A stretch of 41,343 nucleotides of DNA. Origin: Prevotellaceae bacterium. GTDB taxonomy: Bacteria > Bacteroidota > Bacteroidia > Bacteroidales > UBA932. The stretch spans positions 1 to 41,343 of the forward strand of contig JAISGH010000103.1 in assembly GCA_031263185.1 (NCBI GenBank), written 5' to 3'. The translations under genes were made by a program, and so were the position numbers. Shown piece after piece: positions 1-29,913 of the stretch. Below the pieces are notes generated by a model. That model searched no databases, had not been told where the DNA came from, and saw nothing but the letters and a program-made list of their open reading frames with translations. How positions within the stretch are numbered: position 1 is the stretch's first letter; each line of letters starts with the position of its first letter.

Positions 1-336
1 AACCGTAGATACGAATATTTTAATGTTCAGCAAGGATAAAAACCGACAACAAACGCAAGCTTGCGTGGTCAAAAAGGAAGGTATAAAAGATTTGAGCGTT
101 TATTTTAGACAAAACGCTGAATGCTGTAAATTCGGCCCTGACAGTTGGGTGATCCTTTCTCCCATTGAGCAACAGATAAAGGCTAAAATTGAGGCTGTTG
201 GAACACCGCTGAAGGATTGGGATATTCAAATTTATCGCGGTATTCTGACAGGATATAATGAAGCTTTTATCATTGACGGAAAGAAGAAAGACGAATTGAT
301 TGCAGAAGACCCAAAATCAGCCGAGATTATACGACC
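1..336. repeat. IR-L, the left arm of a long inverted repeat. It is cut by the window edge and lies inside the spare TRD cassette.
   Basis: nt 1-100 are the exact reverse complement of nt 1746-1845 (checked base by base). nt 141-336 match 1705-1510 with only a few mismatches (about 154, 230, 302, 304). nt 101-140 are a diverged 40-bp patch of equal length. Position x pairs with 1846-x. Confidence 0.9.
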
Positions 337-931
337 TATTTTACGTGGCAGAGACATAAAAAGATATGGTTACGATTTCGCTGATTTATGGCTAATCAAT
401 ACTCATAATGGCATAAAGGAAAAAGGAATAAAACCTATAAACATAGATGATTATCCTGCCATTAAAAAACACTTAGATAAATATTTTCCGGAATTGAAAA
501 AACGTGCAGACAAAGGCAATACTCCATACAATTTAAGAAATTGTGCTTATATCGAGGATTTTTCTAAGCAAAAAATAGTATGGTTAACAATAACAGATTC
601 GCCAAAATTCGCAATGGATTCATCCAAATCTATTTGCCTCAATTCGGTATTCTTCATGACAGGTAGTGACTATTTGTATATAATTTTAGCTTCACTAAAC
701 TCAAAACTAATCGAATGGTATTTTGACGGTATATGTGTATCGACTGGAGAGGGAACCAATAAATGGGAAAAGTTTGTGGTTGAGAGAATACCCATTCCAA
801 AACCAGATAAGCAAATCGAACAACAAATAGAGAAATTATTGTTATTAAAAAAACATAAAGAAATTGATAAATTGATTTATAATATGTACGGATTAAGCGA
901 AAAAGAGATAAATTTTATTGAAATTCTATAA
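2..931 (+). CDS. 5'-incomplete alternative C-terminal target-recognition cassette (TaqI_C-like) of the neighbouring methyltransferase. It is either a silent cassette or the tail of a gene that starts left of the window.
   Basis: The open frame runs from nt 2 (TVDTNILMFSKDKNRQQTQACVVKKEGIKDLSV...). The first ~112 aa are almost identical to residues in the C-terminal third of the 915..4286 protein (YRGILTGYNEAFIIDGKKKDEL). The remaining ~200 aa are unrelated in sequence but end in the same ...LSEKEI.FIE motif. No catalytic MTase motifs are in view. Confidence 0.75.
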   Translation, partial: TVDTNILMFSKDKNRQQTQACVVKKEGIKDLSVYFRQNAECCKFGPDSWVILSPIEQQIKAKIEAVGTPLKDWDIQIYRGILTGYNEAFIIDGKKKDELIAEDPKSAEIIRPILRGRDIKRYGYDFADLWLINTHNGIKEKGIKPINIDDYPAIKKHLDKYFPELKKRADKGNTPYNLRNCAYIEDFSKQKIVWLTITDSPKFAMDSSKSICLNSVFFMTGSDYLYIILASLNSKLIEWYFDGICVSTGEGTNKWEKFVVERIPIPKPDKQIEQQIEKLLLLKKHKEIDKLIYNMYGLSEKEINFIEIL

Positions 932-3900
932 ATTCTATCTCTTCTTCTGAAAGTTTGTATATATTATAAACTATGTCATCAATATTTTGATAATCTTCTA
1001 TTTGCAACATTTTTTCTATTTGCTGTTTAGTTTCGAAATCTGGAATAGGTATTTTTATGGGCTCAATAGCCTGCACACTTATTAATAAATCACCTGTTCC
1101 TGTTTTAGGTGAATCTTGTAGCATATAGTTTCCTAATCTAGAATTTAATATTCCAACCAGATATTGCAGGTTCTCTCCCGTTGCAAAACATGTACTATCA
1201 AGAACTGTATGCTTCTTTTCATCATAACAAAATCGAAGAATTGAACCTACTCGTTTCCACACAATTTTTTGTTTATCTAAATCCTCCCAATAACTTATCG
1301 AGTCTTGTGTCTCAAACCATTTATTATTAGTCCTTTTCCTTGCTCCTGCTTCGCCTGTCTGCTTCAGTCGGTCATAGCCAAAGCTCATAAGATGCTTTTT
1401 TACAGCCGGATACTGTTCGATATCTATTTTAAGACTTGGAAATGTTATAATTAAGTATAAATCAGCAAATTGATAACTGTATCTTTTAATATCTCGCCCT
1501 CTGAGTAACGGTCGTATAATCTCGGCTGATTTTGGGTCTTCGGAAATCAATTCGTCTTTCTTCTTTCCGTCAATGATAAAAGCTTCATTATATCCTGTCA
1601 GAATACCGCGATAAATATGAATATCCCAATCCTTCAGCGGTGTTCCAACAGCCTCAATTTTAGCCTTTATCTGTTGCTCAATGGGAGAAAGTATCACCCA
1701 ACTGTTGGAGCCAAAGCTGCAATCAGCGGCATTTTGCCTAACAAAAACGCTCAAATCTTTTATACCTTCCTTTTTGACCACGCAAGCTTGCGTTTGTTGT
1801 CGGTTTTTATCCTTGCTGAACATTAAAATATTCGTATCTACGGTTGCCGATTCGAATATTTTTACGCCGGCAAAGTCTATTAATTGGAGCGGATTGGTAT
1901 TTTCAGCAAAGAACCTCCGCGTATTTTCTCCATAACCTGCCCGCATCCATTTATTGGATGTTATGAAGCATAAATATGCTTGTGGTTTAAGTAGTTGATA
2001 GCCTCGTTCGTAAAACAGCGAGTATAAATCGCCCATGCTGTCAAATGTCTGATACGGACTTGGGATGTTTTTTTTATTTTCCTTTTTGGGTCCGTAAAGT
2101 TTTGACAATTCACCGCCGTTTTTTTGCAGCTGAACATACGGCGGATTGCCGATAATGATGTCAAAACCTTGCGTAACGCCAAACATCCGTTCAGCATCAA
2201 AAAACGGCGAAGTGGCGTTTGGGTTATAAGGATCCCAATCCGAAATTTTTTGTGCAGTGTCGTTGTCGTAGCCGATTTCTTTCAGTTTTTTGGCAATTTG
2301 TCCGCGCAGTTCGCGGTCTTTTTGCCGATATTTTGCTTTTGTTTCTGATGTGCGTGCGCTGAAATGCTTGTGCCGTACTACTGCAAGTTCTTTTTCGAGC
2401 GGAGCAATAATATCCATGCCAATAGTCAGTTGCGTCGGTTTGTCAAGTCCTGTGAGCGTGTTTGCTGCCACAAATTTGGTTTCGAGGTTTGGCAGCGGGC
2501 GTATTCCCAAATTCGGTTTTTCGGGGTTAGGGGTTTGCTCGCATACCAATGAAATAAAAAATCGCAGCTTTGCAATCTGCACAGCAATCGATTGAATATC
2601 AATACCAAAAATACAATTTTCAATCAAAAATAATTTTCGCCCATAATTCAGCTCGTTATTTTCAAATGCCTCCTCAATATTTTTAATGGCAAATTCACGC
2701 GCCTTTTCGTCTTCAATCTTTTCTGCCAGAGAAAGTTGCCGCTGTTTCCAGAGATTGTTATTAGGATCGAGCTTTTGTAAAACCTGCACCATTTTATTGA
2801 GAATACCCATAGGAAATGCACCCGAACCACAGGCGGGGTCAAGAATTTTGCAATTATCAAGAGCCGAAATCAATTTTTGAGTATTTTCTTTGTCAAAAGG
2901 ATTTTCGGAATTGTCGTCAAACAAAATTTTCAGGTTGTTTTCCAAATCATTTTCATTCAAAAAATCATTTTTCAAATATGCAATGAGCGATTCCTGCACC
3001 ATATAGTCCACAATTTCGCGGGGCGTGTAGAAACTGCCGGTCTGTTTGCGGGCGGTTGTTTGCGTTTCAGGATTATAGCTTGCCAAAAGATTTTCAAAAA
3101 CTTTTCCCAAAAGTTCAGGGTCAAGCGCAATTTCCACATCGACAGGCGTATTTTCTTCAATCGTGAAATTATAGGTTTGCAAAATATCAATCAATCCGCG
3201 AACTTTGTACGTTTTGCTTTTGGTATCGTAAATTTCATTTAAATCAACCGATTTTTCCTCATTAAAAAACAGAAAATCAGGAATTTTTAAAAGTTCTTCC
3301 TTATCTGTTCGATTTGAAAAACAGTCAATTCGTATTTCGTTTTCCTGTCCAATATTTTTATCCAGATTTTCAAAAAGCCCGCCGTTGAGAAAAGGAATAT
3401 TTTGTATGAGTTTGAGAAATCGCTCTTTGTCTTTGAAAAATCTTTCGTAGCGGTAAAAACCTTGAACACCGCTTTGCCGATTGACAAATTTTCTCTTTTC
3501 ACCCATTTCAGTATTAAGTGTGGCAAAAAAGAGATTTTGCAAAATTGCTTTATAATAAGTGCTCCCTGCTTTATCTTTGTAATTCAATATATTAGAAAGT
3601 TTTTGCCTGTCAAAAAAATCATTGTCTATTAATTTTTTCTGTTTCAAAAACCAGACAAACATCAATCGCGTAATCAGGCGAATAACCGCAGTTTCATTAC
3701 TGTTTTGCGGAAATTGCACATTTTGCAACGCCCAAAAATACCAGTTTGAAAGTTCTTTGAAAAATTCTTTAGTAAGCATTTCGACAGAAAATGCATCCAT
3801 CAATGTTTTGAGCGAAACTCCGTCGGTTAGCAATTTTGTAAATCGCTCAATTGCCGTATGGTAGTGTTGCGTTTCATCGCCAAACACAAATGTAAACCGT

Positions 3901-4286
3901 TTTGGCGAAGTTTCTTCGCCTTTTATGTCGGAAATAAGCGAAACCCGCCATGCCACCCCGTCGTCGAAAACGGCAAGCGCAGCGTCGAACACTCCCCAAC
4001 GCGGGTTGGTAAAGGTTTTTACAAGGTTTCGCAGCCCAACGCGGCGATGAACAACGCTTCCGCTGTTGAGCCTGAAATAGAAAAGCCCGATTTCAGCGTC
4101 GGGAGCGGAAAGCTTGCCGAGATAGTACGCCGTTTCGGTTTCGGTCGAAACGGCGAGCTGTTCGGGCGTTTGCCTCAATTCGCGCACTCCGAAAAGGTTG
4201 AGCAGCATAGCTTGCCAGGTATCGGCGCTGAACGCCGACTGAAAAATGGTCTGCAATTCTTCTTTTGAATACATTATCCTGTTCAT
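915..4286 (-). CDS. Large single-chain N6-adenine DNA methyltransferase, Eco57I/Type IIG-like gamma class, with a C-terminal TaqI_C-like specificity domain.
   Basis: 1123-aa ORF. Contains FYTPREIVDYMV, motif I ILDPACGSGAF, motif IV IIGNPPYVQL, and the TRD signature YRGILTGYNEAFII. Motif I precedes NPPY. No obvious PD-(D/E)XK motif was recognised in the N-terminal ~140 aa. Confidence 0.9.
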   Translation of the reverse strand: MNRIMYSKEELQTIFQSAFSADTWQAMLLNLFGVRELRQTPEQLAVSTETETAYYLGKLSAPDAEIGLFYFRLNSGSVVHRRVGLRNLVKTFTNPRWGVFDAALAVFDDGVAWRVSLISDIKGEETSPKRFTFVFGDETQHYHTAIERFTKLLTDGVSLKTLMDAFSVEMLTKEFFKELSNWYFWALQNVQFPQNSNETAVIRLITRLMFVWFLKQKKLIDNDFFDRQKLSNILNYKDKAGSTYYKAILQNLFFATLNTEMGEKRKFVNRQSGVQGFYRYERFFKDKERFLKLIQNIPFLNGGLFENLDKNIGQENEIRIDCFSNRTDKEELLKIPDFLFFNEEKSVDLNEIYDTKSKTYKVRGLIDILQTYNFTIEENTPVDVEIALDPELLGKVFENLLASYNPETQTTARKQTGSFYTPREIVDYMVQESLIAYLKNDFLNENDLENNLKILFDDNSENPFDKENTQKLISALDNCKILDPACGSGAFPMGILNKMVQVLQKLDPNNNLWKQRQLSLAEKIEDEKAREFAIKNIEEAFENNELNYGRKLFLIENCIFGIDIQSIAVQIAKLRFFISLVCEQTPNPEKPNLGIRPLPNLETKFVAANTLTGLDKPTQLTIGMDIIAPLEKELAVVRHKHFSARTSETKAKYRQKDRELRGQIAKKLKEIGYDNDTAQKISDWDPYNPNATSPFFDAERMFGVTQGFDIIIGNPPYVQLQKNGGELSKLYGPKKENKKNIPSPYQTFDSMGDLYSLFYERGYQLLKPQAYLCFITSNKWMRAGYGENTRRFFAENTNPLQLIDFAGVKIFESATVDTNILMFSKDKNRQQTQACVVKKEGIKDLSVFVRQNAADCSFGSNSWVILSPIEQQIKAKIEAVGTPLKDWDIHIYRGILTGYNEAFIIDGKKKDELISEDPKSAEIIRPLLRGRDIKRYSYQFADLYLIITFPSLKIDIEQYPAVKKHLMSFGYDRLKQTGEAGARKRTNNKWFETQDSISYWEDLDKQKIVWKRVGSILRFCYDEKKHTVLDSTCFATGENLQYLVGILNSRLGNYMLQDSPKTGTGDLLISVQAIEPIKIPIPDFETKQQIEKMLQIEDYQNIDDIVYNIYKLSEEEIEFIEFQ
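1510..1845. repeat. IR-R, the right arm of the inverted repeat, inside the expressed methyltransferase gene.
   Basis: Reverse complement of nt 1-336. It has a perfect 100-bp core at 1746-1845. Confidence 0.9.
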
Positions 4287-4320: not shown

Positions 4321-7300
4321 TCAAATAAACGTTTCAGAAATTACAATATTTGGTTCGGTATTATCAATAGTCGATTCGGTCGAAACGGCTGTATAGTACT
4401 TGTCGTAGAGTTCATTTATCTGAATATCAATTTCATACTGTTTGTTTTTCATAATCTGCCTGTCGTTTTTAAGCTCGCGCGAAATGGTGCGGACTGTTTT
4501 TGCCAGCTGTGCGTAGATGCCCTGCTGAATATATTCACGAAGGCGCTTACAGCGACTGCGAATATCGTCATCTTCGGTTACCAGAGCATAACTTTGCAGA
4601 AACCGCTGCGCTTCGGCAGTGCCGCGGTCGTGCGATAATTCGTTCAAACTGCCGGTATCCTGCTGCGTAATACTTTCCATCTTAAATTTTTGCAAAGCAC
4701 GATTAACCTGTTCGTAATGAATCGATTCGGCATCTGCAAACGGCGCAGCCTGTTCCTCGCATTTTGCTTTCAAAATAAAAGCGGCTTCGAGGAAATCTAT
4801 CGGTTTTACTTCGCTTTGCGAAACGTTGTAATATTCTGTTTTTCTTGGCGATGAAACAAAAGCGATTGTTTCGTTGGATGCGTGGCGCACCGCGTCTGTA
4901 CATTTTCTTGCCACGCGGCTTTTCATCGGCAACGCCTTTATTTTTTTGTAAAGAGCACGGTCGGTATTGTACAGCTCCCGCACTTCGCGCAGCAGCTCCA
5001 ACTGTTTATCGACCTTGTCTTTGACTTTGGGGTTGAAAAGCTGAAATTCGCGAACAATTTCCTCCTTTGAATAAATCTGGGCATCTTCGCCCAAAGCCGA
5101 ATGAAATCCCTGCAACTTGATTAAAGCGTTGCGGTAGAGCTGAATTTGCGCATCGCCCTGCGCCGACGGATAAAACATATAATTATAGATTTCGCCTGCA
5201 ACCGAGCCGATACGGTTTACGCGCCCGATGCGCTGCATCAGTCGGGTTGCGTTCCAGGGCGAATCGTAGTTGACAATCACGTTTGCGCGGTGCAGATTGA
5301 CGCCTTCCGCCAGCACATCCGACGTGAGAAGAATATTGTATTTGTTGTCGAAATGTTCATAATTGGCGTCGAAGCAGCGGCGAATTGCGTCAAATTCGCG
5401 AGTGCGATTTACCGATGTAACTTCCAAAATATCGTGCCGCTGCAATTTTTCTATCAGATTTTTTTTCAGATAGTTGAGGGTATCTACGCTTTCCGAAAAA
5501 ACAACCACCTTTCCGGTTGGATTTTTTTGTTTGTCAAACAGCTCTGTTTTCAGTTTTTCGACGAACAAATCAAGCTTGGGGTCGTCGGTAATTTTGTCCC
5601 ACTGATTTTTCAGCTTAATCAGGCAATCGCGGTCGGCTTCAAGCATTGGCAGCAATTCTTCGGTAATTTCTGTTTCTTCTTCCGCTTCCGTATCTGCGAT
5701 TTTTTGTGGTTTGGCAGTAAAATCGTCGGGCGCAAAAACAATGTCCGCAGCGTCATAACCTTTTTCCACAGCGTATTCAATAATTCGGTCGAGTTCCCAA
5801 CCTTTTGCCTGCAAGTCTTTAATTTTCAATTCTGGCGCAACAATAATTTTGCCTTCTGCAAACATTTTAATCATATCGTTTGTAATACGCAAAAACGTAT
5901 CGAGCGATTTACGAAAGGCATCAAAGCTGCTTTCCAGACGTTTAACCATATGAACACGATATATTTCGGCAAGGTTTTTGCCGATATTGGCAGGATTTTT
6001 GAATTTCTTGCTGTGTTCCTCATTCAGAAACTCAACCGCACGGTATCGGGCATAGTGCAATTCGTTTGCCAGCACGTTTAATGTGCTGTAAAACAGCTCG
6101 TTAAGCTTGCCGTTTAATTTGTATGTCAAATCGTTGGGCGGTAATATGTCGGGGAATTTAATTTTTTGGTCGTCCAAATCGTGCTGATAATCCTCGTCGT
6201 TCATAATATTATGGCGGGTACGGCGAACGGTGATTTTATCGAGAGCCTGATTGCGGATTTCCTCATAAATGGCATCTATCTCGGCTGTGTCTGTCAAACG
6301 TTTGCGAGCTTTCATTATTTGGTTGTAGCGATCAATACGCGGCGCGAAAAATGCCTGTAAATTGCTTATTCCGGCTATGGTACAGCGTCGCGCATCCTGA
6401 AACAGCAGCATCAAATTGAGCAGGTCGTTCGGGCGATTATTCAAAGGGGTAGCCGAAAGCAGCATGATTTTTTTCCGTTCGCTTTTTATCAAACCGGCAT
6501 TATTGCGGGGCGACTTGCAAATCTGCTGCAATTCGTCGTATCGCGTAGTGCTGTCGCTGCGGAATCCGTGCGCCTCGTCAACAATTATCAGGTCAAATTC
6601 TTCTTTGGCCTTGTAATTGTTTTTGCCTTCAATCACTTTCGACAAGCTGCCATTGCTTACAAACTGCGCTTTTTTGCTGATTCCGAACCGCCGGAACGTA
6701 TCTTTCCAGTTGTCTTTCAATGCGGGCGGATAAACAACCAAAATATTGGTATTGCGTCCGTTTGCCTCTACAAATCGTTTTGCAATCATCGTTGCCACAA
6801 TAGTTTTACCCAAACCTACCACATCTGCAAGGAAAAAACCGTTGTGTTCGCAAAGCATCTGATAGCCCTGAATTACAGCATCGCTTTGATATTTCAGGTT
6901 GCGGATACCGTCGGGCAAAGCGGTAGAAAAATCATCTTCAATCTGGTCGCCGAAACTGTCAATCAACACCTTGATATACAATTCGTAAGGAGTGGGATAG
7001 ATGCCAATGTGGGTTTTAATTTTGCTTTTTTCAATATCATTTGCAGTAATCGGAATAGCTGTTTCCCACAGCTTATCAAATTCTTCCTTGCAGAAAGCCA
7101 CATCATCATAATCTTTCATAGCCACATTCAGCTCGTAACGTGGCGGTTCTGTCAGCCCCAATCCCGATTCCGAAATATTGGAAGACCCCATAATAACCCA
7201 GCCGTCGCTGTGCTGGGAATGAGTTTGCGGCAGGCAGAGGTAAAATTTGGCGTGTAAATTTTTTGTCGCATGAATTTTCATTTCCACTTTGCCTGTATGC

Positions 7301-7647
7301 AGGTCGTCGCACAGCTGTAAAATTCCCTGTTCAACCTCCGGCGCATAGCGGGCAGCCTGTACGTCGTTGATAAAATCCTGACTGTAAATCTCTTTTGCTT
7401 CTTCTTCATTGCCCAGCATCAGCATGGCGCGGTTATGCTTGCGAAAAATATTGTCGATATTGATTCCGACAAGAATTTGAATTTTCTGCACATTTGCAAG
7501 TTCTTCCCGCAGGCGAAAATAACCGGACGACCTGAAAAAACCAACAACAGCGTGAAAGCTGTGAAAATTTGCCATACCCTGCGCAATCCCTCCGAATTTA
7601 TCGAAGAGGGTGTTACCTGTCTGATTTGTAAAGAATTTTGAGGACAT
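4321..7647 (-). CDS. PLD-family (HKD) nuclease domain fused to an SNF2/SF2 helicase, followed by an uncharacterised ~300-aa C-terminal region.
   Basis: 1108-aa ORF. N-terminal HKD motif HAKFYL...GSSNIS. Helicase motifs LADVVGLGKT (I), IIVDEAHGF (II, DEAH), LLSATPLNN (III) and LAEGVNL...QRIGRVNRIG (V/VI). It lies 34 bp upstream of the MTase start on the same strand. Confidence 0.9.
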   Translation of the reverse strand: MSSKFFTNQTGNTLFDKFGGIAQGMANFHSFHAVVGFFRSSGYFRLREELANVQKIQILVGINIDNIFRKHNRAMLMLGNEEEAKEIYSQDFINDVQAARYAPEVEQGILQLCDDLHTGKVEMKIHATKNLHAKFYLCLPQTHSQHSDGWVIMGSSNISESGLGLTEPPRYELNVAMKDYDDVAFCKEEFDKLWETAIPITANDIEKSKIKTHIGIYPTPYELYIKVLIDSFGDQIEDDFSTALPDGIRNLKYQSDAVIQGYQMLCEHNGFFLADVVGLGKTIVATMIAKRFVEANGRNTNILVVYPPALKDNWKDTFRRFGISKKAQFVSNGSLSKVIEGKNNYKAKEEFDLIIVDEAHGFRSDSTTRYDELQQICKSPRNNAGLIKSERKKIMLLSATPLNNRPNDLLNLMLLFQDARRCTIAGISNLQAFFAPRIDRYNQIMKARKRLTDTAEIDAIYEEIRNQALDKITVRRTRHNIMNDEDYQHDLDDQKIKFPDILPPNDLTYKLNGKLNELFYSTLNVLANELHYARYRAVEFLNEEHSKKFKNPANIGKNLAEIYRVHMVKRLESSFDAFRKSLDTFLRITNDMIKMFAEGKIIVAPELKIKDLQAKGWELDRIIEYAVEKGYDAADIVFAPDDFTAKPQKIADTEAEEETEITEELLPMLEADRDCLIKLKNQWDKITDDPKLDLFVEKLKTELFDKQKNPTGKVVVFSESVDTLNYLKKNLIEKLQRHDILEVTSVNRTREFDAIRRCFDANYEHFDNKYNILLTSDVLAEGVNLHRANVIVNYDSPWNATRLMQRIGRVNRIGSVAGEIYNYMFYPSAQGDAQIQLYRNALIKLQGFHSALGEDAQIYSKEEIVREFQLFNPKVKDKVDKQLELLREVRELYNTDRALYKKIKALPMKSRVARKCTDAVRHASNETIAFVSSPRKTEYYNVSQSEVKPIDFLEAAFILKAKCEEQAAPFADAESIHYEQVNRALQKFKMESITQQDTGSLNELSHDRGTAEAQRFLQSYALVTEDDDIRSRCKRLREYIQQGIYAQLAKTVRTISRELKNDRQIMKNKQYEIDIQINELYDKYYTAVSTESTIDNTEPNIVISETFI

Positions 7648-7649
7648 AA

Positions 7650-7787
7650 TTATCTTTCTTTTTTTGCTGATACGAGTAAATCTTTTATTTCCACATTCAA
7701 CAATTCTGCGATTGTATGTAGTGTTTCAAGCGATGGTTGTACTTCATTGGTACACCATCTTGATACCGCTGTTTCATTCTTGCCCAA
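7650..7787 (-). pseudogene. 5'-truncated XRE-family helix-turn-helix gene remnant (controller-like).
   Basis: The minus-strand frame reads (TTG)LGKNETAVSRWCTNEVQPSLETLHTIAELLNVEIKDLLVSAKKER*. This is the recognition helix and tail of a typical ~65-aa XRE HTH. An in-frame TAA sits immediately upstream, so the first ~20 aa are missing. Its stop lies 2 nt before the helicase ATG. Confidence 0.6.
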
Positions 7788-7875
7788 TTATTCGGGTGAA
7801 CGACAAAATTCCCATTCCTATAAAGTGCTAAGGGATGAGAAATAAATAACATATAACGGATATAAAAGCTGTAGA

Positions 7876-7904
7876 GACCTCACCCCCAGCCCCTCTCCAA
7901 AGGA
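7876..7904. repeat. Single-arm copy of the GC-rich palindromic element family seen complete at 14521-14625.
   Basis: gacctcacccccagcccctctccaaagga versus gacctcaccccctgcccctctccgaagga at 14521, with 27 of 29 positions identical. It sits at the junction between the AT-rich and GC-rich regions. Confidence 0.6.
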
Positions 7905-7964
7905 CCGCGCGGAGTGGCCGAAATGTAACTCATGTTAATTATGCAATATATTGAATTTTAAATA

Positions 7965-7972
7965 CAAAGATA
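7965..7972 (-). promoter_or_regulatory. Candidate Bacteroidetes -7 box (TATCTTTG on the minus strand) pointing into the XRE-remnant/helicase/MTase operon.
   Basis: Plus-strand CAAAGATA is the reverse complement of the TAnnTTTG consensus. The -33 element is poor. Confidence 0.3.
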
Positions 7973-8132
7973 CTATTTTTTGCTGACTTGTACAAGATTT
8001 TTAATGATTTTTAAGAAAAAATTTTTCTGTGCTTTTTTAGTTTTCACGCAGCCTCCAAAAGTTTTTCAGCTGGGAGCAGCTGATCACCTGACCTACTTCT
8101 ACTCGAATACTGAAAATGGCATAAAAAAGTTG

Positions 8133-8140
8133 TATCTTTG
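8133..8140 (+). promoter_or_regulatory. Candidate -7 box TATCTTTG upstream of the epimerase gene.
   Basis: Matches the Bacteroidetes TAnnTTTG consensus about 50 nt upstream of the ATG at 8190. Confidence 0.4.
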
Positions 8141-8189
8141 CGCAATAAATCATAGCTATCCGAACTTTTAATCTTTAATTTTTTTGGCG

Positions 8190-9206
8190 ATGAAAATTCT
8201 ATTTATTGGCGGGACAGGCACCATTAGCGCGGCCATTTCTCGCGCACTTCTTGCCGAAGGGCATGAGCTTTACCTTATCAACCGTGGCAGCAGGAACAGC
8301 CTCCTTCCCCAAGGAGCAACTTCGCTGCTGGCCGATGTTAACGACGAGCAAAAAGTAGCAGCGCTAATCAAAGATTTGACCTTTGATGCCGTTGCCGACT
8401 TTATAGCTTTTGTGCCGGAGCACTTGGAGCGCGACTACCGGCTGTTTAAGGGGAAAACAAAGCAGCTGGTTTTCATCAGCTCTGCCTCGGCGTACCAAAA
8501 GCCGCTGTCGGATTACCGAATATCGGAGGGAACGCCGCTTGCCAACCCGCTTTGGAAGTATTCGCGCGACAAAATTGCCTGCGAGGATTACCTAACGCAC
8601 CTGTACCGCACCGAAGGATTTCCGGTAACCATTGTTCGTCCGAGCCACACCTACTGCGAAACCTCCGTCCCGCTTGGGGTGCATGGCGCAAAGGGCAGCT
8701 GGCAGGTGATAAAAAGAATGTTGGAGAAGAAGCCGGTGATTATTCACGGCGACGGCACCTCGCTCTGGACAATGACCGATAGCCGTGATTTTGCGCGGGC
8801 GTTCGTCGGCTTGCTGGGCAACATTCACGCCATTGGCGAGGCCGTACAAATCACCTCCGACGAAACGCTTACGTGGAACCAGATTTACGAGTGCATTGCG
8901 CGCGCGCTGAACGTACCCTTGCGCGCGGTACATGTATCGTCGGAGATGCTGGCTGCCTGCAGCGACTACGATTTTACCGGCGGGCTTATCGGTGATAAGG
9001 CAAACTCTGTTGTGTTTGACAACGCCAAGCTGAAGCGCCTTGTTCCCGGCTTTGCGGCAACAATTCGCTTTGACCAGGGGATAAAGAGAACGGTTGACTA
9101 CATGCTTGCGCACAAGGAGTGCCAACAGCCCGACGAAGAGTTCGATGCATGGTGCGATAAAGTCATTGCTGCCGTAGAAAAAGCTGTAAAAGAAGTTGGA
9201 AGTTGA
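8190..9206 (+). CDS. NAD-dependent epimerase/dehydratase (extended SDR) family protein.
   Basis: N-terminal Rossmann motif MKILFIGGTGTISAAI. The length is about 338 aa. I chose the ATG at 8190 rather than the TTG at 8184 used by the ORF track. Confidence 0.85.
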   Translation: MKILFIGGTGTISAAISRALLAEGHELYLINRGSRNSLLPQGATSLLADVNDEQKVAALIKDLTFDAVADFIAFVPEHLERDYRLFKGKTKQLVFISSASAYQKPLSDYRISEGTPLANPLWKYSRDKIACEDYLTHLYRTEGFPVTIVRPSHTYCETSVPLGVHGAKGSWQVIKRMLEKKPVIIHGDGTSLWTMTDSRDFARAFVGLLGNIHAIGEAVQITSDETLTWNQIYECIARALNVPLRAVHVSSEMLAACSDYDFTGGLIGDKANSVVFDNAKLKRLVPGFAATIRFDQGIKRTVDYMLAHKECQQPDEEFDAWCDKVIAAVEKAVKEVGS

Positions 9207-9238
9207 GAATAAGCCCGCCAAGGGCTACCGAAATTCTC

Positions 9239-9985
<747 letters not shown>

Positions 9986-10549
9986 GCGGAGTTCAGATTT
10001 GAAGTTCAACAAAATTGTACTGCACGATATATAATCTTATGCTGATTACAAACATGTAAAAATACAAAAATATCTTGAATAAGGGCTATCGTCAAAATGA
10101 GTAATGAGTTTAAAAGTGGCAAAATTATATGAAAAAATATATATTATTGAACGTCATATATTTGCTGTTTTTTTGCAGCGCTTGTATCTTTACGGCTATA
10201 TGCTATACTTCGCGTGGCGTGGTTTTGTGCATTGCCCGTTAGGACATTCATATCAATAGAATATGGGCGTCACCGAATTTTTCAAGCGCAAGGCTTTTGA
10301 GCACTTTTGCCATATTTCCTTGCACTTATATCACGTAATGTACAATATGCTGATTTATATATAATTACTACTTTTTCAACAGACCCTATTTAAAGCGACT
10401 ATTTGAAATACACCCGCACCTAAAAATATCGCAGAAAATAGCTGTATATACTTACCCATCAGGATTGTTAAATTTTTAGTGGTATGGTTGAGCCGCTCAA
10501 TAAATGAATTTTGAGCCGCTGAGGAAACCACAATTAAAATCTTTCGCTT

Positions 10550-10557
10550 TACCTTTG
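10550..10557 (+). promoter_or_regulatory. Candidate -7 box TACCTTTG upstream of the flavodoxin-like gene.
   Basis: TAnnTTTG match 28 nt upstream of the ATG at 10585. No good -33 TTTG was seen. Confidence 0.35.
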
Positions 10558-10584
10558 GGCTTTCATTTAAAAAAATAACAGCGT

Positions 10585-11139
10585 ATGAAGAAAATGACGT
10601 TTTTGGCAGCGTCCGTCCTTGCTTTAAGTAGCATTGCGCAGGCGCAGAGCAAGGGAAAAATCCTTATTGCCTACTTTTCGTGGGGCGGAAATACCCGCGA
10701 AGTGGCAAAGCAAATCCAGCAGCAAGCGGGTGGCGATTTGTTCGAAATCGCTACGGTAAAGACTTACCCCGCCGACTACGACGATTGCGTGGCGGAAGCC
10801 AAGCAAGAGCAGCAAGCCGACGCCCGTCCGCCGCTTGCAGCTGAGGTAAAGGATATGGCGGCTTACGACGCAGTTTTTGTGGGCTACCCCAACTGGTGGG
10901 GAACGATGCCCATGGCGCTGTTCACCTTTTTGGAAAAGTACGACCTCGGCGGCAAATCCGTTATCCCGTTCTGTACGCACGGCGGCGGGCGCTTGGGGCG
11001 TAGCGTGAACGACCTTCAAAAGTTGTGCCCCAACGCTACCCTCCTCGAAGGGCTGGCCGTTAGCAGCAACATGTCAAAGCGCTCAAAAGACGATGTAGCG
11101 CAGTGGCTGCAAAAAATAGGAATGATAAACGGTAAATAA
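10585..11139 (+). CDS. Exported flavodoxin-like protein (Flavodoxin_4-like).
   Basis: Sec-type signal MKKMTFLAASVLALSSIAQA. This is followed by KILIAYFSWGGNTREVAKQI...YDAVFVGYPNWWGTMP...VIPFCTHGGG, which is typical of this flavodoxin family. Confidence 0.8.
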   Translation: MKKMTFLAASVLALSSIAQAQSKGKILIAYFSWGGNTREVAKQIQQQAGGDLFEIATVKTYPADYDDCVAEAKQEQQADARPPLAAEVKDMAAYDAVFVGYPNWWGTMPMALFTFLEKYDLGGKSVIPFCTHGGGRLGRSVNDLQKLCPNATLLEGLAVSSNMSKRSKDDVAQWLQKIGMINGK

Positions 11140-28899: not shown

Positions 28900-28962
28900 A
28901 CTATAGTTTGAGCGCCGGTAGCCAAAAATTCGTTCACGGTAAAATATTTACTATATTTGTAC

Positions 28963-29913
28963 ATGGCTAAACTACCTAATCTCATGAAAAAAACAAAGGA
29001 ACCGGAAACAAGGCTAAACCCTCTAAACGACTACCTGTTCATGAAGTACATGGGCGAGAAAGGCGATGAAGAGCAACTTATGGCCTTTCTAAATGTTGTG
29101 CTGCAAAAGACGAATAGAGATGGCATTAAATCGGTTAAAATAGCTGGTGACAGAACCCTGTCCGCTGACATTATAGGCGACAAATCCAGCATATTGGACG
29201 TGCTTGCCACCATGGGCGACGGTACGAAAGTCAACATTGAAGTGCAGCTCCGCAACGTTGGCGACATGGACAGGCGTAGCCTGTTTTACTGGAGCCGCGA
29301 GTACACCAAAGGTATTAAGTCCGGCGATGACTACAGCGACCTGCCAAACGTTATAGTCATCAATATTATTGATTTTCAGTTTATTGATGTTAACGCAGTG
29401 CATACAAGTTTTCATCTGTGGGAAGACCACCACAAGGACTGCCTGCTTACGGACGCGCTGGAGGTACACTTCATTGACATGGTCAGGTTCCGGCGGTTGC
29501 GCAAGAAAGATATTGTAGGCAACGGTCTGCACCGTTGGCTGACATTTTTTGATAAGAATACAAATAACCAAGTAGTTAAGGAGGTTGTCGACATGGATGC
29601 AGCCATAAAGAAAGCCCAGCAAAAAATTATGTTTGTTTCTCAAGACGAGGACACTTTTCGTACCTACCAGATGCGCGAGATGGCCTTATCCGATTTCACC
29701 AGCGGCATAAACAATGCTCACCGGAAAGGAATGGCCATTGGCGAGAAACGAGGTGAGAAACGAGGCATTGCCATTGGCAAACAGCAAGGAAAACAGCAGG
29801 AAAAAATAAGGTTTGTTTTGAAGTTGTCCCAAGAAGGCACACCTGTTGCTGCGATTGCAAGACTCGCAGAGTTATCCGTTAAAGACGTAAAGCAAATTCT
29901 CAAAACTTCCTGA
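28963..29913 (+). CDS. Rpn-family (YhgA-like, PD-(D/E)XK) recombination-promoting nuclease / putative transposase.
   Basis: LNPLNDYLFMKYMG...ILDVLATMGDGTKVNIEVQLRN...RSLFYWSREY is the characteristic PDDEXK_2/Rpn core. The C-terminal part carries GIAIGEKRGEKRG-type repeats. The start is uncertain: ATG at 28963 or 28984, and the track start at 28957 is a TTG. A TATATTTG box lies at 28952-28959. Confidence 0.85.
   Translation: MAKLPNLMKKTKEPETRLNPLNDYLFMKYMGEKGDEEQLMAFLNVVLQKTNRDGIKSVKIAGDRTLSADIIGDKSSILDVLATMGDGTKVNIEVQLRNVGDMDRRSLFYWSREYTKGIKSGDDYSDLPNVIVINIIDFQFIDVNAVHTSFHLWEDHHKDCLLTDALEVHFIDMVRFRRLRKKDIVGNGLHRWLTFFDKNTNNQVVKEVVDMDAAIKKAQQKIMFVSQDEDTFRTYQMREMALSDFTSGINNAHRKGMAIGEKRGEKRGIAIGKQQGKQQEKIRFVLKLSQEGTPVAAIARLAELSVKDVKQILKTS

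What the first reader, a model, noticed from the sequence alone, without database searches (positions are those of the whole stretch)
1..1845. Inverted-repeat-bracketed spare specificity cassette: candidate DNA-inversion switch on a single-chain Eco57I/TaqI_C-type methyltransferase
Directly seen: nt 1-100 are the exact reverse complement of 1746-1845, and near-identity continues to about 336/1510. Beyond that, the two coding tails diverge completely at the protein level. They are ...DFADLWLINTHNGIKEKGIKPINIDDYPAIKKHL... versus ...QFADLYLIITFPSLKIDIEQYPAVKKHLMSFGYDRLKQTGE.... The tails converge tail-to-tail at 915-931. The plus-strand copy shows only the conserved start of the TRD plus a different variable half, and no catalytic region is in view.

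Inference: recombination between the arms would flip nt 337-1509 and replace the last ~200 aa of the 1123-aa methyltransferase. That would change its DNA target. This is the logic of Type I hsdS shufflons, which are established for Streptococcus pneumoniae, Mycoplasma pulmonis and Bacteroides fragilis. Here the switched module is part of the catalytic polypeptide itself. 100 bp of perfect identity next to fully diverged sequence argues for ongoing recombination or gene conversion rather than an old duplication.
Basis: partly seen in the sequence, partly recalled or inferred. Interest (0 to 1): 0.85.

Follow-up and report, generated by a model that had tools for sequence, protein, structure and literature searches.

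The report
Invertible DNA-target module of a methyltransferase
The contig ends inside a DNA-inversion switch that can swap the DNA-recognition tail of a defence methyltransferase for a silent spare copy; this kind of switch has already been published, so this is a new example of a known kind.

Summary
The inverted repeat is real: nt 1-396 pair with 1450-1845. A 309-codon open frame on the + strand (nt 2-931) is a promoterless spare copy of the C-terminal TaqI_C specificity region of the 1123-aa Eco57I-family methyltransferase (915-4286, -). That gene follows a PLD-nuclease/SNF2-helicase gene (4321-7647, -).

Seventeen of 80 homologous loci, from at least six phyla, have the same layout. Fourteen of those carry an Mpi-family serine invertase next to the spare copy. 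In relatives the repeat stops sharply at GAGCG(T/A)TT, which is window nt 94-101 and 1745-1752. A second motif pair, GAGGATTT, lies at 554-561 and 1279-1286. Gut-metagenome contigs of one relative differ by clean inversions with breakpoints at both motifs.

The likely crossover is therefore at the outer motif, not in 337-1509. About 276 aa would be exchanged, and possibly four alleles exist.

The window is a whole contig. Its first 93 nt lie outside the family repeat boundary, yet match the methyltransferase body 93/93. They probably show the flipped junction, which would mean both orientations were in the sample. This is inferred, because no reads could be examined and the invertase lies off-contig.

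Milman et al. 2023 validated this architecture with long reads in Bacteroides ovatus. Verdict: new member of a known kind.

The parts
1..93 (+). Exact reverse-complement copy of methyltransferase body codons about 815-845 (window 1753-1845). It lies outside the repeat boundary seen in all relatives. Interpreted as the body side of the flipped junction at the contig end.
   Evidence: 93/93 identity. In 16 relatives the sequence outside the GAGCG core is unrelated between the two arms. The window equals a whole contig.
94..101 (+). S1-L: outer candidate crossover core GAGCGTTT, left copy.
   Evidence: Motif scan. The sharp repeat boundary sits at this motif in relatives. A whole S1-to-S1 block is inverted between L086 and L090.
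102..141 (+). Cassette-specific diverged patch, 23/40 identical to 1705-1744. It encodes YFRQNAECCKFGPD versus FVRQNAADCSFGSN.
142..396 (+). Left arm of the framework repeat: 191/195 identical over 142-336, then decaying. It encodes the conserved N-terminal part of the specificity region (residues 861-946).
2..931 (+). Silent spare specificity cassette: a 309-codon open frame with TaqI_C only and no catalytic domain.
   Evidence: In all 17 relatives that carry the repeat, the convergent copy covers only residues of about 829-848 and beyond (926 in L046).
554..561 (+). S2-L: inner candidate crossover core GAGGATTT in the spare cassette (within the weak repeat 547-583).
   Evidence: Clean inversions with breakpoints in this motif in relatives.
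915..931 (.). Tail-to-tail overlap of the two stop codons (methyltransferase stop 915-917, cassette stop 929-931).
1279..1286 (-). S2-R: inner candidate crossover core GAGGATTT in the expressed gene, near residue 1001.
1450..1744 (-). Right arm of the framework repeat (1450-1704) plus the gene-specific patch (1705-1744).
1745..1752 (-). S1-R: outer candidate crossover core GAGCGTTT in the expressed gene, codons about 846-848.
915..4286 (-). Eco57I-family N6-adenine methyltransferase with a C-terminal TaqI_C specificity domain. 1123 aa as the longest ORF; 1119 aa as called in the database.
   Evidence: Pfam Eco57I 3.9e-39, TaqI_C 4.2e-10. PADLOC REase_MTase_IIG 4.6e-129. PDB sequence matches to site-specific adenine DNA methyltransferases 7lni and 8cxz and to BseCI and TaqI. 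P0121.
4321..7647 (-). PLD (HKD) nuclease fused to an SNF2-family helicase, 1108 aa, 34 nt upstream of the methyltransferase. Presumed restriction or motor partner.
   Evidence: Pfam PLDc_2, ResIII, SNF2-rel_dom, Helicase_C. PADLOC 'HKD+Snf2' 1.5e-39. A helicase homologue lies upstream of the methyltransferase in 16 of the 17 repeat-bearing relatives.

Best explanation
Nt 1-1845 are the visible part of a serine-invertase-driven specificity switch. It belongs to a two-gene restriction-like module: a PLD-SNF2 nuclease/helicase plus an Eco57I/TaqI_C methyltransferase.

The methyltransferase gene ends in a specificity region. A promoterless spare version of that region (nt about 94-931) lies tail-to-tail with it. 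An Mpi-family invertase is expected just left of nt 1. It would recombine the two inverted copies of the core GAGCGTTT (94-101 and 1745-1752) and flip about nt 102-1744. That fuses the fixed methyltransferase body (residues 1-847) in frame to the other cassette. The result is a 1123-aa enzyme with a different target-recognition domain.

A second inverted pair, GAGGATTT (554-561 / 1279-1286), may allow exchange of only the last ~120 residues. That would give up to four alleles.

The contig stops 93 nt beyond the left core, inside sequence identical to the methyltransferase body. The most likely reason is that the assembler followed reads from cells in the flipped state.

Shown: the repeat, the open spare cassette, the domain content, the conserved architecture and invertase in relatives, the sharp boundary motif, and natural inversions at both motifs in relatives.

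Inferred: that this locus has its own invertase, that it is switching in this sample, and that the two tails confer different DNA targets.
For: Repeat and open 309-codon spare frame.

Domains.

Seventeen of 80 homologous loci carry a convergent copy limited to residues of about 829-848 and beyond (926 in L046). Fourteen of them have a roughly 200-aa gene abutting it. All 10 such genes tested are Pfam Resolvase. One scores 347 bits against NCBIfam 'master DNA invertase Mpi family' (cutoff 272).

In 13 of 17 relatives the outer edge of the repeat maps to window residues 843-846, at GAGCG(T/A)TT, with unrelated sequence outside it. The window is 93/93 identical outside the motif and diverges right inside it.

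Gut-metagenome contigs that share one invertase protein show three relevant differences:
- a 2716-bp inversion at 99.9% identity, with breakpoints in the GGAGGATTT copies
- a 1432-bp inversion at 100% identity
- a whole block from outer core to outer core inverted

Two Riemerella anatipestifer strains differ by an 824-bp inversion at 100% identity, with breakpoints in GGAGGATTTTT.

Several relatives' contigs end at, or about 50-125 nt past, these motifs. Most contigs that carry the well-sampled invertase are shorter than 5 kb.

Published long-read validation exists for the same gene pair in Bacteroides ovatus CP083813.1 (PMC9881135).
Against: No recombinase gene is visible. None was found in six-frame searches of the window or among the other large ORFs over 41 kb.

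No reads were available, so neither orientation could be counted.

No public sequence holds the flipped allele or a leftward extension. The closest cassette is 66% identical and the closest methyltransferase 61%. One metagenome scan was empty, and exact-protein look-ups found nothing.

The inner site pair is weak here: 28/37 identity, with only 8-nt exact cores.

The reading of nt 1-93 as a flipped junction cannot be separated, from the assembly alone, from a locally longer static repeat. With 98% identity elsewhere in the repeat, 0 mismatches in 101 nt is not improbable on its own.

That one invertase recognises both motifs is an inference.
Confidence: 0.8

Rival explanations
1. The switch works. 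General homologous recombination, or gene conversion, between the long near-identical arms (142-336 / 1510-1704) flips about 337-1509. No dedicated site or invertase is involved.
For: 195 nt at 98% identity is ample substrate for RecA. No recombinase is visible in the window. Some invertible loci lack a nearby recombinase (PMC9881135 introduction).
Against: Natural inversions in relatives have breakpoints at the short GAGCGWTT and GGAGGATTT motifs, not inside the long arms. A highly conserved Mpi-family invertase abuts the cassette in 14 of 17 relatives. The body-to-cassette junction at the contig's left end lies within nt 94-101, outside 142-336.
Confidence: 0.08
2. A frozen relic. The spare cassette is a leftover of an old duplication or of a once-active switch, the locus no longer inverts, and nt 1-93 are simply a longer static duplication in this genome.
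For: No invertase or alternative orientation could be observed here. Degenerate relatives exist: Riemerella L081 has a fragmented methyltransferase and a 690-bp deletion, and gut MAG L092 has about 5 kb of cassettes and catalytic domain deleted. Zero mismatches in 101 nt is compatible with the 98% identity seen in 142-336.
Against: The 309-codon spare frame is fully open in an AT-rich genome. Both motif pairs are intact and symmetric. A repeat reaching at least 93 nt beyond the motif, at 100% identity and next to a 57%-identical patch, has no counterpart in 16 relatives. The contig breaks exactly there.
Confidence: 0.1
3. The + strand copy is the 3' end of a second, complete and independently expressed methyltransferase gene, convergent with the first. 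This would be two paralogous enzymes, not a switch.
For: The frame is open to nt 2, and identity to the methyltransferase body continues to the contig end. An extension further left therefore cannot be excluded from the window alone.
Against: In none of the 17 relatives that carry the repeat does the convergent copy extend N-terminal of residue about 829, and none has a second catalytic domain downstream. The database holds many standalone TaqI_C-only ORFs of about 260-310 aa of this family.
Confidence: 0.02

Closest known systems
Gene-altering programmed inversion in the Bacteroides ovatus Type II RM enzyme homologous to C. jejuni Cj0031, with an upstream PLD + SNF helicase CDS (CP083813.1:5324991-5328359). 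Milman et al., NAR 2023, PMC9881135.
   Same: Same gene pair and order: a PLD-SNF2 gene immediately upstream of an Eco57I-type enzyme of about 1122 aa. Inverted repeats overlap the 3' part of the gene, with a shorter pseudogene-like partner. Mpi-family serine invertases are enriched next to such targets. Homologues with repeats occur in several phyla.
   Different: This locus is only 40-60% identical to any public relative. Its invertase is off-contig. I could not read CP083813.1, so direct sequence comparison, its site motifs and its cassette number are untested. The two-motif nested-site description here comes from my own comparisons, and I did not find it in the parts of the paper I searched.
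Type I hsdS shufflons (S. pneumoniae SpnD39III/ivr, Bacteroides fragilis, Mycoplasma pulmonis). PMC7672463, PMC4948785, PMC7641763.
   Same: Silent, inverted partial specificity genes recombine with the expressed copy to change methylation and restriction specificity in a clonal population.
   Different: There the switched unit is a separate HsdS subunit with two recognition domains, and the recombinase is usually a tyrosine type. Here there are no hsdS, hsdM or hsdR genes. The switched part is the C-terminus of the catalytic polypeptide, and relatives use a serine invertase.
BREX type 1 PglX and Class 1 DISARM DrmMI programmed inversions (Lacticaseibacillus rhamnosus NC_013198.1 and others; PMC9881135).
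   Same: An Eco57I-like methyltransferase of a defence system has its specificity-determining part exchanged by inversion.
   Different: No BrxA/B/C, PglZ or BrxL, and no DrmA/B/C, are nearby. NCBIfam PglX and DrmD scores are far below the cut-offs.
Mpi master DNA invertase of Bacteroides fragilis, and the Hin/Gin/Cin/Pin invertases.
   Same: Relatives' recombinase passes the NCBIfam Mpi-family model. It is a small serine recombinase with a C-terminal HTH acting on short inverted sites, as in the phage Mu G segment, where alternative C-terminal gene parts are swapped (from general knowledge).
   Different: From general knowledge, Mpi is known for flipping promoters of polysaccharide loci at many unlinked sites. 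Here the invertase is locus-linked and alters a coding sequence. The core motifs found here (GAGCGWTT, GGAGGATTT) were not compared with published Mpi or hix/gix sites.
Cj0031 (CjeNII-type Type IIG enzyme) phase variation in Campylobacter jejuni (Anjum et al. 2016, cited in PMC9881135).
   Same: A homologous enzyme family that is phase-variable.
   Different: Cj0031 switches ON/OFF through a polyG tract, with no change of specificity by inversion.

Membership tests
Programmed-inversion-targeted Cj0031-like methyltransferase with PLD-SNF2 partner (Milman et al. 2023) | Eco57I-family methyltransferase with a C-terminal specificity domain | tested here: met
   Pfam Eco57I 3.9e-39 and TaqI_C 4.2e-10. 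PADLOC REase_MTase_IIG 4.6e-129.
Programmed-inversion-targeted Cj0031-like methyltransferase with PLD-SNF2 partner (Milman et al. 2023) | Immediately upstream CDS with phospholipase D and SNF2 helicase domains | tested here: met
   4321-7647(-): PLDc_2, SNF2-rel_dom, ResIII, Helicase_C, 34 nt from the methyltransferase start.
Programmed-inversion-targeted Cj0031-like methyltransferase with PLD-SNF2 partner (Milman et al. 2023) | Inverted repeats overlapping the gene, with a shorter inverted partial copy (gene/pseudogene size asymmetry) | tested here: met
   Arms 1-396 / 1450-1845. 309-aa partial copy versus the 1123-aa gene.
Programmed-inversion-targeted Cj0031-like methyltransferase with PLD-SNF2 partner (Milman et al. 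2023) | Recombinase gene at the locus | not testable with these tools
   The contig ends at nt 1, and there is no recombinase elsewhere in the window. In 14 of 17 relatives an Mpi-family invertase abuts the cassette on that side.
Programmed-inversion-targeted Cj0031-like methyltransferase with PLD-SNF2 partner (Milman et al. 2023) | Coexisting orientation variants in reads of one sample | tested here: inconclusive
   No reads were available. Indirect evidence is the body-to-spare-cassette junction at the contig's left end. Relatives show inversions between samples.
Type I restriction-modification hsdS shufflon | Separate HsdS specificity subunit with HsdM and HsdR genes | tested here: not met
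   No Methylase_S or HsdM/HsdR architecture. The specificity domain is fused to the catalytic polypeptide.
BREX type 1 (PglX) | PglX equivalog score plus brxA/B/C, pglZ, brxL neighbours | tested here: not met
   NF033452 scores 73.6 bits against a cutoff of 500. The neighbours are an epimerase and an OmpA protein.
Class 1 DISARM | DrmA, DrmB (DUF1998), DrmC, DrmD and DrmMI together | tested here: not met
   DrmD model scores 156.5 bits against a cutoff of 610. The DrmMI hit is only partial. There is no DUF1998 or DrmA gene. This is a two-gene module.
Mpi-family serine invertase system | Recombinase passing NCBIfam NF009949 | not testable with these tools
   Met in relative L026 (347 bits, cutoff 272). 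The window's own recombinase is not on the contig.

The most novel reading that the evidence does not exclude
The contig itself records active switching: its first 93 nt are the methyltransferase body joined to the spare cassette across an 8-nt crossover core. The family also uses two nested pairs of related short cores (GAGCGWTT and GGAGGATTT), read by one locus-linked Mpi-family invertase, to shuffle two sub-modules of a single-chain recognition domain independently. That would give four or more specificities from one gene. I did not find this site grammar, or the two-sub-module shuffling for this enzyme class, in the literature I could search.
Probability: 0.45. Interest if true: 0.5.

Novelty: new member of a known kind. 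Interest (0 to 1): 0.35.

Why it matters
If active, the switch lets one clone keep subpopulations with different methylation and restriction specificities. That is bet-hedging against phages, and possibly a source of epigenetic heterogeneity.

The value of this locus is incremental. It is a divergent new example (61% or less identical to any public relative) in a chromosomal Bacteroidota context.

The comparison made here pins the likely crossover points to two short conserved cores. It also shows that the module (methyltransferase, spare cassettes, Mpi-type invertase) travels together across at least six phyla.

The practical lesson is that contigs break at these sites. Automated annotation therefore calls the spare cassettes as standalone 'TaqI-like specificity domain proteins'.

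Tried and rejected
- Exact-protein look-ups of the window's methyltransferase, helicase and cassette returned nothing, so no leftward extension was obtained.
- A metagenome scan for nt 1-35 gave 0 hits.
- I looked for the predicted flipped allele (methyltransferase body plus left tail) among 5.8 billion proteins. None was found.
- I looked for any recombinase in the window. An HMM built from 10 relatives' invertases gave no six-frame hit. Pfam on the 25 other large ORFs found only a PDDEXK_2 transposase-like gene at 28957-29913, which is unrelated.
- I considered that the methyltransferase N-terminus (1-380) might be a PD-(D/E)XK nuclease, making this a true Type IIG enzyme. No acidic or lysine residues of a candidate motif are conserved in an 18-sequence alignment and there is no Pfam hit. 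The question is left open. The nuclease is more likely the PLD domain of the partner.
- I considered a pure assembler hairpin artefact. This was rejected because nt 102-396 differ from the right arm, and the join sits on the family's conserved motif.
- The promoter/terminator scan was uninformative: counts were at or near shuffle expectation, and sigma-70 consensus is not appropriate for Bacteroidota.
- My automatic boundary finder failed on the more divergent relatives, so the boundary claim rests on the printed alignments.
Full report
**Observation**

The inverted repeat is real. The repeat finder gives arms 1-396 and 1450-1845, 396 nt and 90% complementary. The alignment shows a mosaic:
- nt 1-101: exact
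- nt 102-141: only 23/40 identical
- nt 142-336: 191/195 identical
- nt 337-396: 40/60, decaying

The + strand frame is open from nt 2 to the stop at 929-931, which is 309 codons. It is a copy of residues 815-1123 of the 1123-aa protein encoded on the minus strand at 915-4286. The two stops overlap tail-to-tail at 915-931.

The two 309-aa tails are 58% identical overall. In the variable half they are roughly one third identical, with indels, and shared framework motifs remain. So they are divergent versions of one fold rather than 'completely' different.

Protein-database records for the window's own proteins give a longest contig of 41343 nt. The window is therefore an entire contig, and nt 1 is an assembly end.

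**What the genes are**

The long gene has Pfam Eco57I (residues 557-811) and TaqI_C (926-1058). It matches PADLOC 'Type IIG REase-MTase' profiles. It also matches, by sequence, solved structures of site-specific adenine DNA methyltransferases (7lni, 8cxz) and of BseCI and TaqI.

The spare copy has TaqI_C only.

A 1108-aa gene lies 34 nt upstream (4321-7647, -). It has a PLD/HKD nuclease domain fused to an SNF2-type helicase.

No hsdS, hsdM or hsdR genes, no BREX genes and no further DISARM genes are nearby. NCBIfam scores for PglX and DrmD are far below their cut-offs.

The rest of the contig is ordinary chromosomal Bacteroidota content: T9SS plug protein, GH95/GH88, TonB receptor, PolA, rpsB-tsf. 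It holds no recombinase.

The methyltransferase N-terminus (1-380) has no Pfam domain and no conserved PD-(D/E)XK signature in an 18-sequence alignment. I infer that cleavage, if any, comes from the PLD domain of the partner, as in a split Type ISP-like enzyme. This part is inference.

**Relatives**

A scan of one genome per species returned 80 loci, 38-56% identical. Self-comparison found the same inverted repeat in 17 of them.

In all 17, the downstream convergent copy covers only window residues of about 829-848 to the C-terminus (from 926 in L046). It never includes the catalytic region. A helicase homologue lies upstream of the methyltransferase in 16 of them.

These 17 loci come from Bacteroidota, Campylobacterota, Planctomycetota, Spirochaetota, Bacillota, Chloroflexota and Alphaproteobacteria.

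A gene of about 200 aa abuts the outer end of the spare copy:
- All 10 tested are Pfam Resolvase with an HTH.
- An HMM built from them finds this invertase in 14 of the 17 repeat-bearing loci and in three further loci. It finds none in the window.

By homology, the + strand copy is a partial cassette next to a recombinase, not a second complete gene. The recombinase side is exactly the side cut off by the contig end.

**Where recombination happens**

In 13 of 17 relatives the outer edge of the repeat maps to window residues 843-846. The printed arm pairs show a sharp edge at GAGCG(T/A)TT. Inside it the arms are near-identical. Outside it the sequence is unrelated: 15-23 of 60 identical in the clear cases. 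That core is window nt 94-101 and 1745-1752.

A second conserved motif, GGAGGATTT, is repeated in inverted orientation. It occurs in the gene, in the full cassette and in extra C-terminal sub-cassettes of some relatives. In the window it lies at 554-561 (+) and 1279-1286 (-), inside a weak 37-nt repeat of 76% identity.

Natural inversions confirm both sites.

- *Riemerella anatipestifer.* Two complete genomes differ by an 824-bp segment inverted at 100% identity. It is centred on the tail-to-tail junction, and its breakpoints lie in an 11-nt shared GGAGGATTTTT.
- *One well-sampled gut invertase protein.* It is seen on 719 contigs, and most carrying contigs are shorter than 5 kb. Contigs with the same chromosomal flanks differ in three ways:
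  - L084 versus L085: a 2716-bp inversion at 99.9% identity, with breakpoints in the GGAGGATTT copies.
  - L086 versus L088: a 1432-bp inversion at 100% identity.
  - L086 versus L090: inversion of the whole block from one outer core to the other (6628-10635, 99.4-99.7% identity), plus a nested inner flip.

Several relatives' contigs also end at the outer core, or about 50-125 nt past the inner one.

**Reading of the window's left end**

In the window, nt 1-93 lie outside the outer core yet are 93/93 identical to the methyltransferase body. Divergence between the arms begins right after the core. No relative looks like this.

The simplest reading is that the contig's left end shows the flipped junction: methyltransferase body, then core, then spare cassette, in frame. 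The contig's interior shows the unflipped junction. That requires reads of both states in the sample and places the crossover within nt 94-101.

I put this at about 0.6. The alternative is a locally longer static repeat. It cannot be excluded from an assembly alone, because either case would end a de Bruijn contig in the same way.

**Mechanism proposed**

An Mpi-family invertase, encoded just left of nt 1, would recombine the two outer cores and flip about nt 102-1744. This replaces residues 848-1123 (about 276 aa) of the methyltransferase with the spare version.

The inner pair could swap only the last ~120 residues, giving up to four alleles.

The long near-identical stretch 142-336 is then conserved framework kept similar by selection or conversion, not the crossover site.

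A changed DNA target is inferred from the role of TaqI_C-type domains. It was not tested.

**Comparison with what is known**

Milman et al. [quoted passage not shown] They also confirmed variant coexistence with long reads for a Bacteroides ovatus enzyme of about 1122 aa. It has an immediately upstream PLD + SNF helicase CDS, and homologues with repeats occur in three phyla.

That is this architecture. The finding is therefore a new, divergent member of a known kind. It works like a Type I hsdS shufflon but is not one.

**Limits**

- There are no reads, no leftward sequence and no close relative.
- I could not fetch the B. ovatus record.
- The two-core site description rests on my comparisons. 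I did not find it in the passages of the paper I searched.

**Scores**

- Interest: 0.35.
- Most novel reading not excluded: active switching recorded in the contig end, plus a nested two-site grammar for sub-module shuffling. Probability about 0.45; interest if true about 0.5.

Noticed in passing
L081 (CP029760.1) versus L083 (CP033039.1), locus coordinates 9505-11017: Two Riemerella anatipestifer genomes differ by an 824-bp inversion at 100% identity, centred on the tail-to-tail junction. L081 also has an adjoining deletion of about 690 bp. Its methyltransferase is split into several short ORFs, so the switch looks locked and decaying.
   Followed up: partly
L084-L091, L093, about 7500-9400: In a gut-metagenome relative the invertible region carries a complete 418-aa AAA_14/DUF4143 ATPase gene. 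Its orientation and position change with the shufflon state. There are also 2-3 extra C-terminal sub-cassettes. Riemerella has the same ATPase next to its invertase.
   Followed up: partly
L092 (GCA_977038315.1), 6638-8038: This is a deletion variant. The invertase and the first ~264 nt of the spare cassette are joined directly to the N-terminal third of the methyltransferase. About 5 kb is removed, including all cassettes and the catalytic domain, while the PLD-SNF2 gene is kept.
   Followed up: partly
L002, L020, L036, L003, L043 (contig ends): Public contigs of relatives often stop at the outer core, or about 50-125 nt beyond the inner core. Most contigs carrying the common gut invertase are under 5 kb. 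The spare cassettes are widely annotated as standalone 'TaqI-like C-terminal specificity domain-containing protein' genes.
   Followed up: partly
L001-L052 invertase genes: The cassette-linked invertases are very similar across distant phyla, for example MIYGYIRVSxDKQTVENQRFEI... in Campylobacterota, Planctomycetota, Spirochaetota and Bacteroidota. They occur in two arrangements, co-directional with the spare cassette or divergent from it. This suggests the whole module moves horizontally.
   Followed up: no
window 28957-29913 (+): A PD-(D/E)XK 'transposase' family (PDDEXK_2) gene sits among sugar-acid catabolism genes. It is not linked to the switch.
   Followed up: no
P0125: An 891-aa methyltransferase, 62% identical to the window's, is listed with no source, as the window's own proteins are. 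It sits on a 35121-nt contig. It may be a second, related locus from the same hidden dataset.
   Followed up: no
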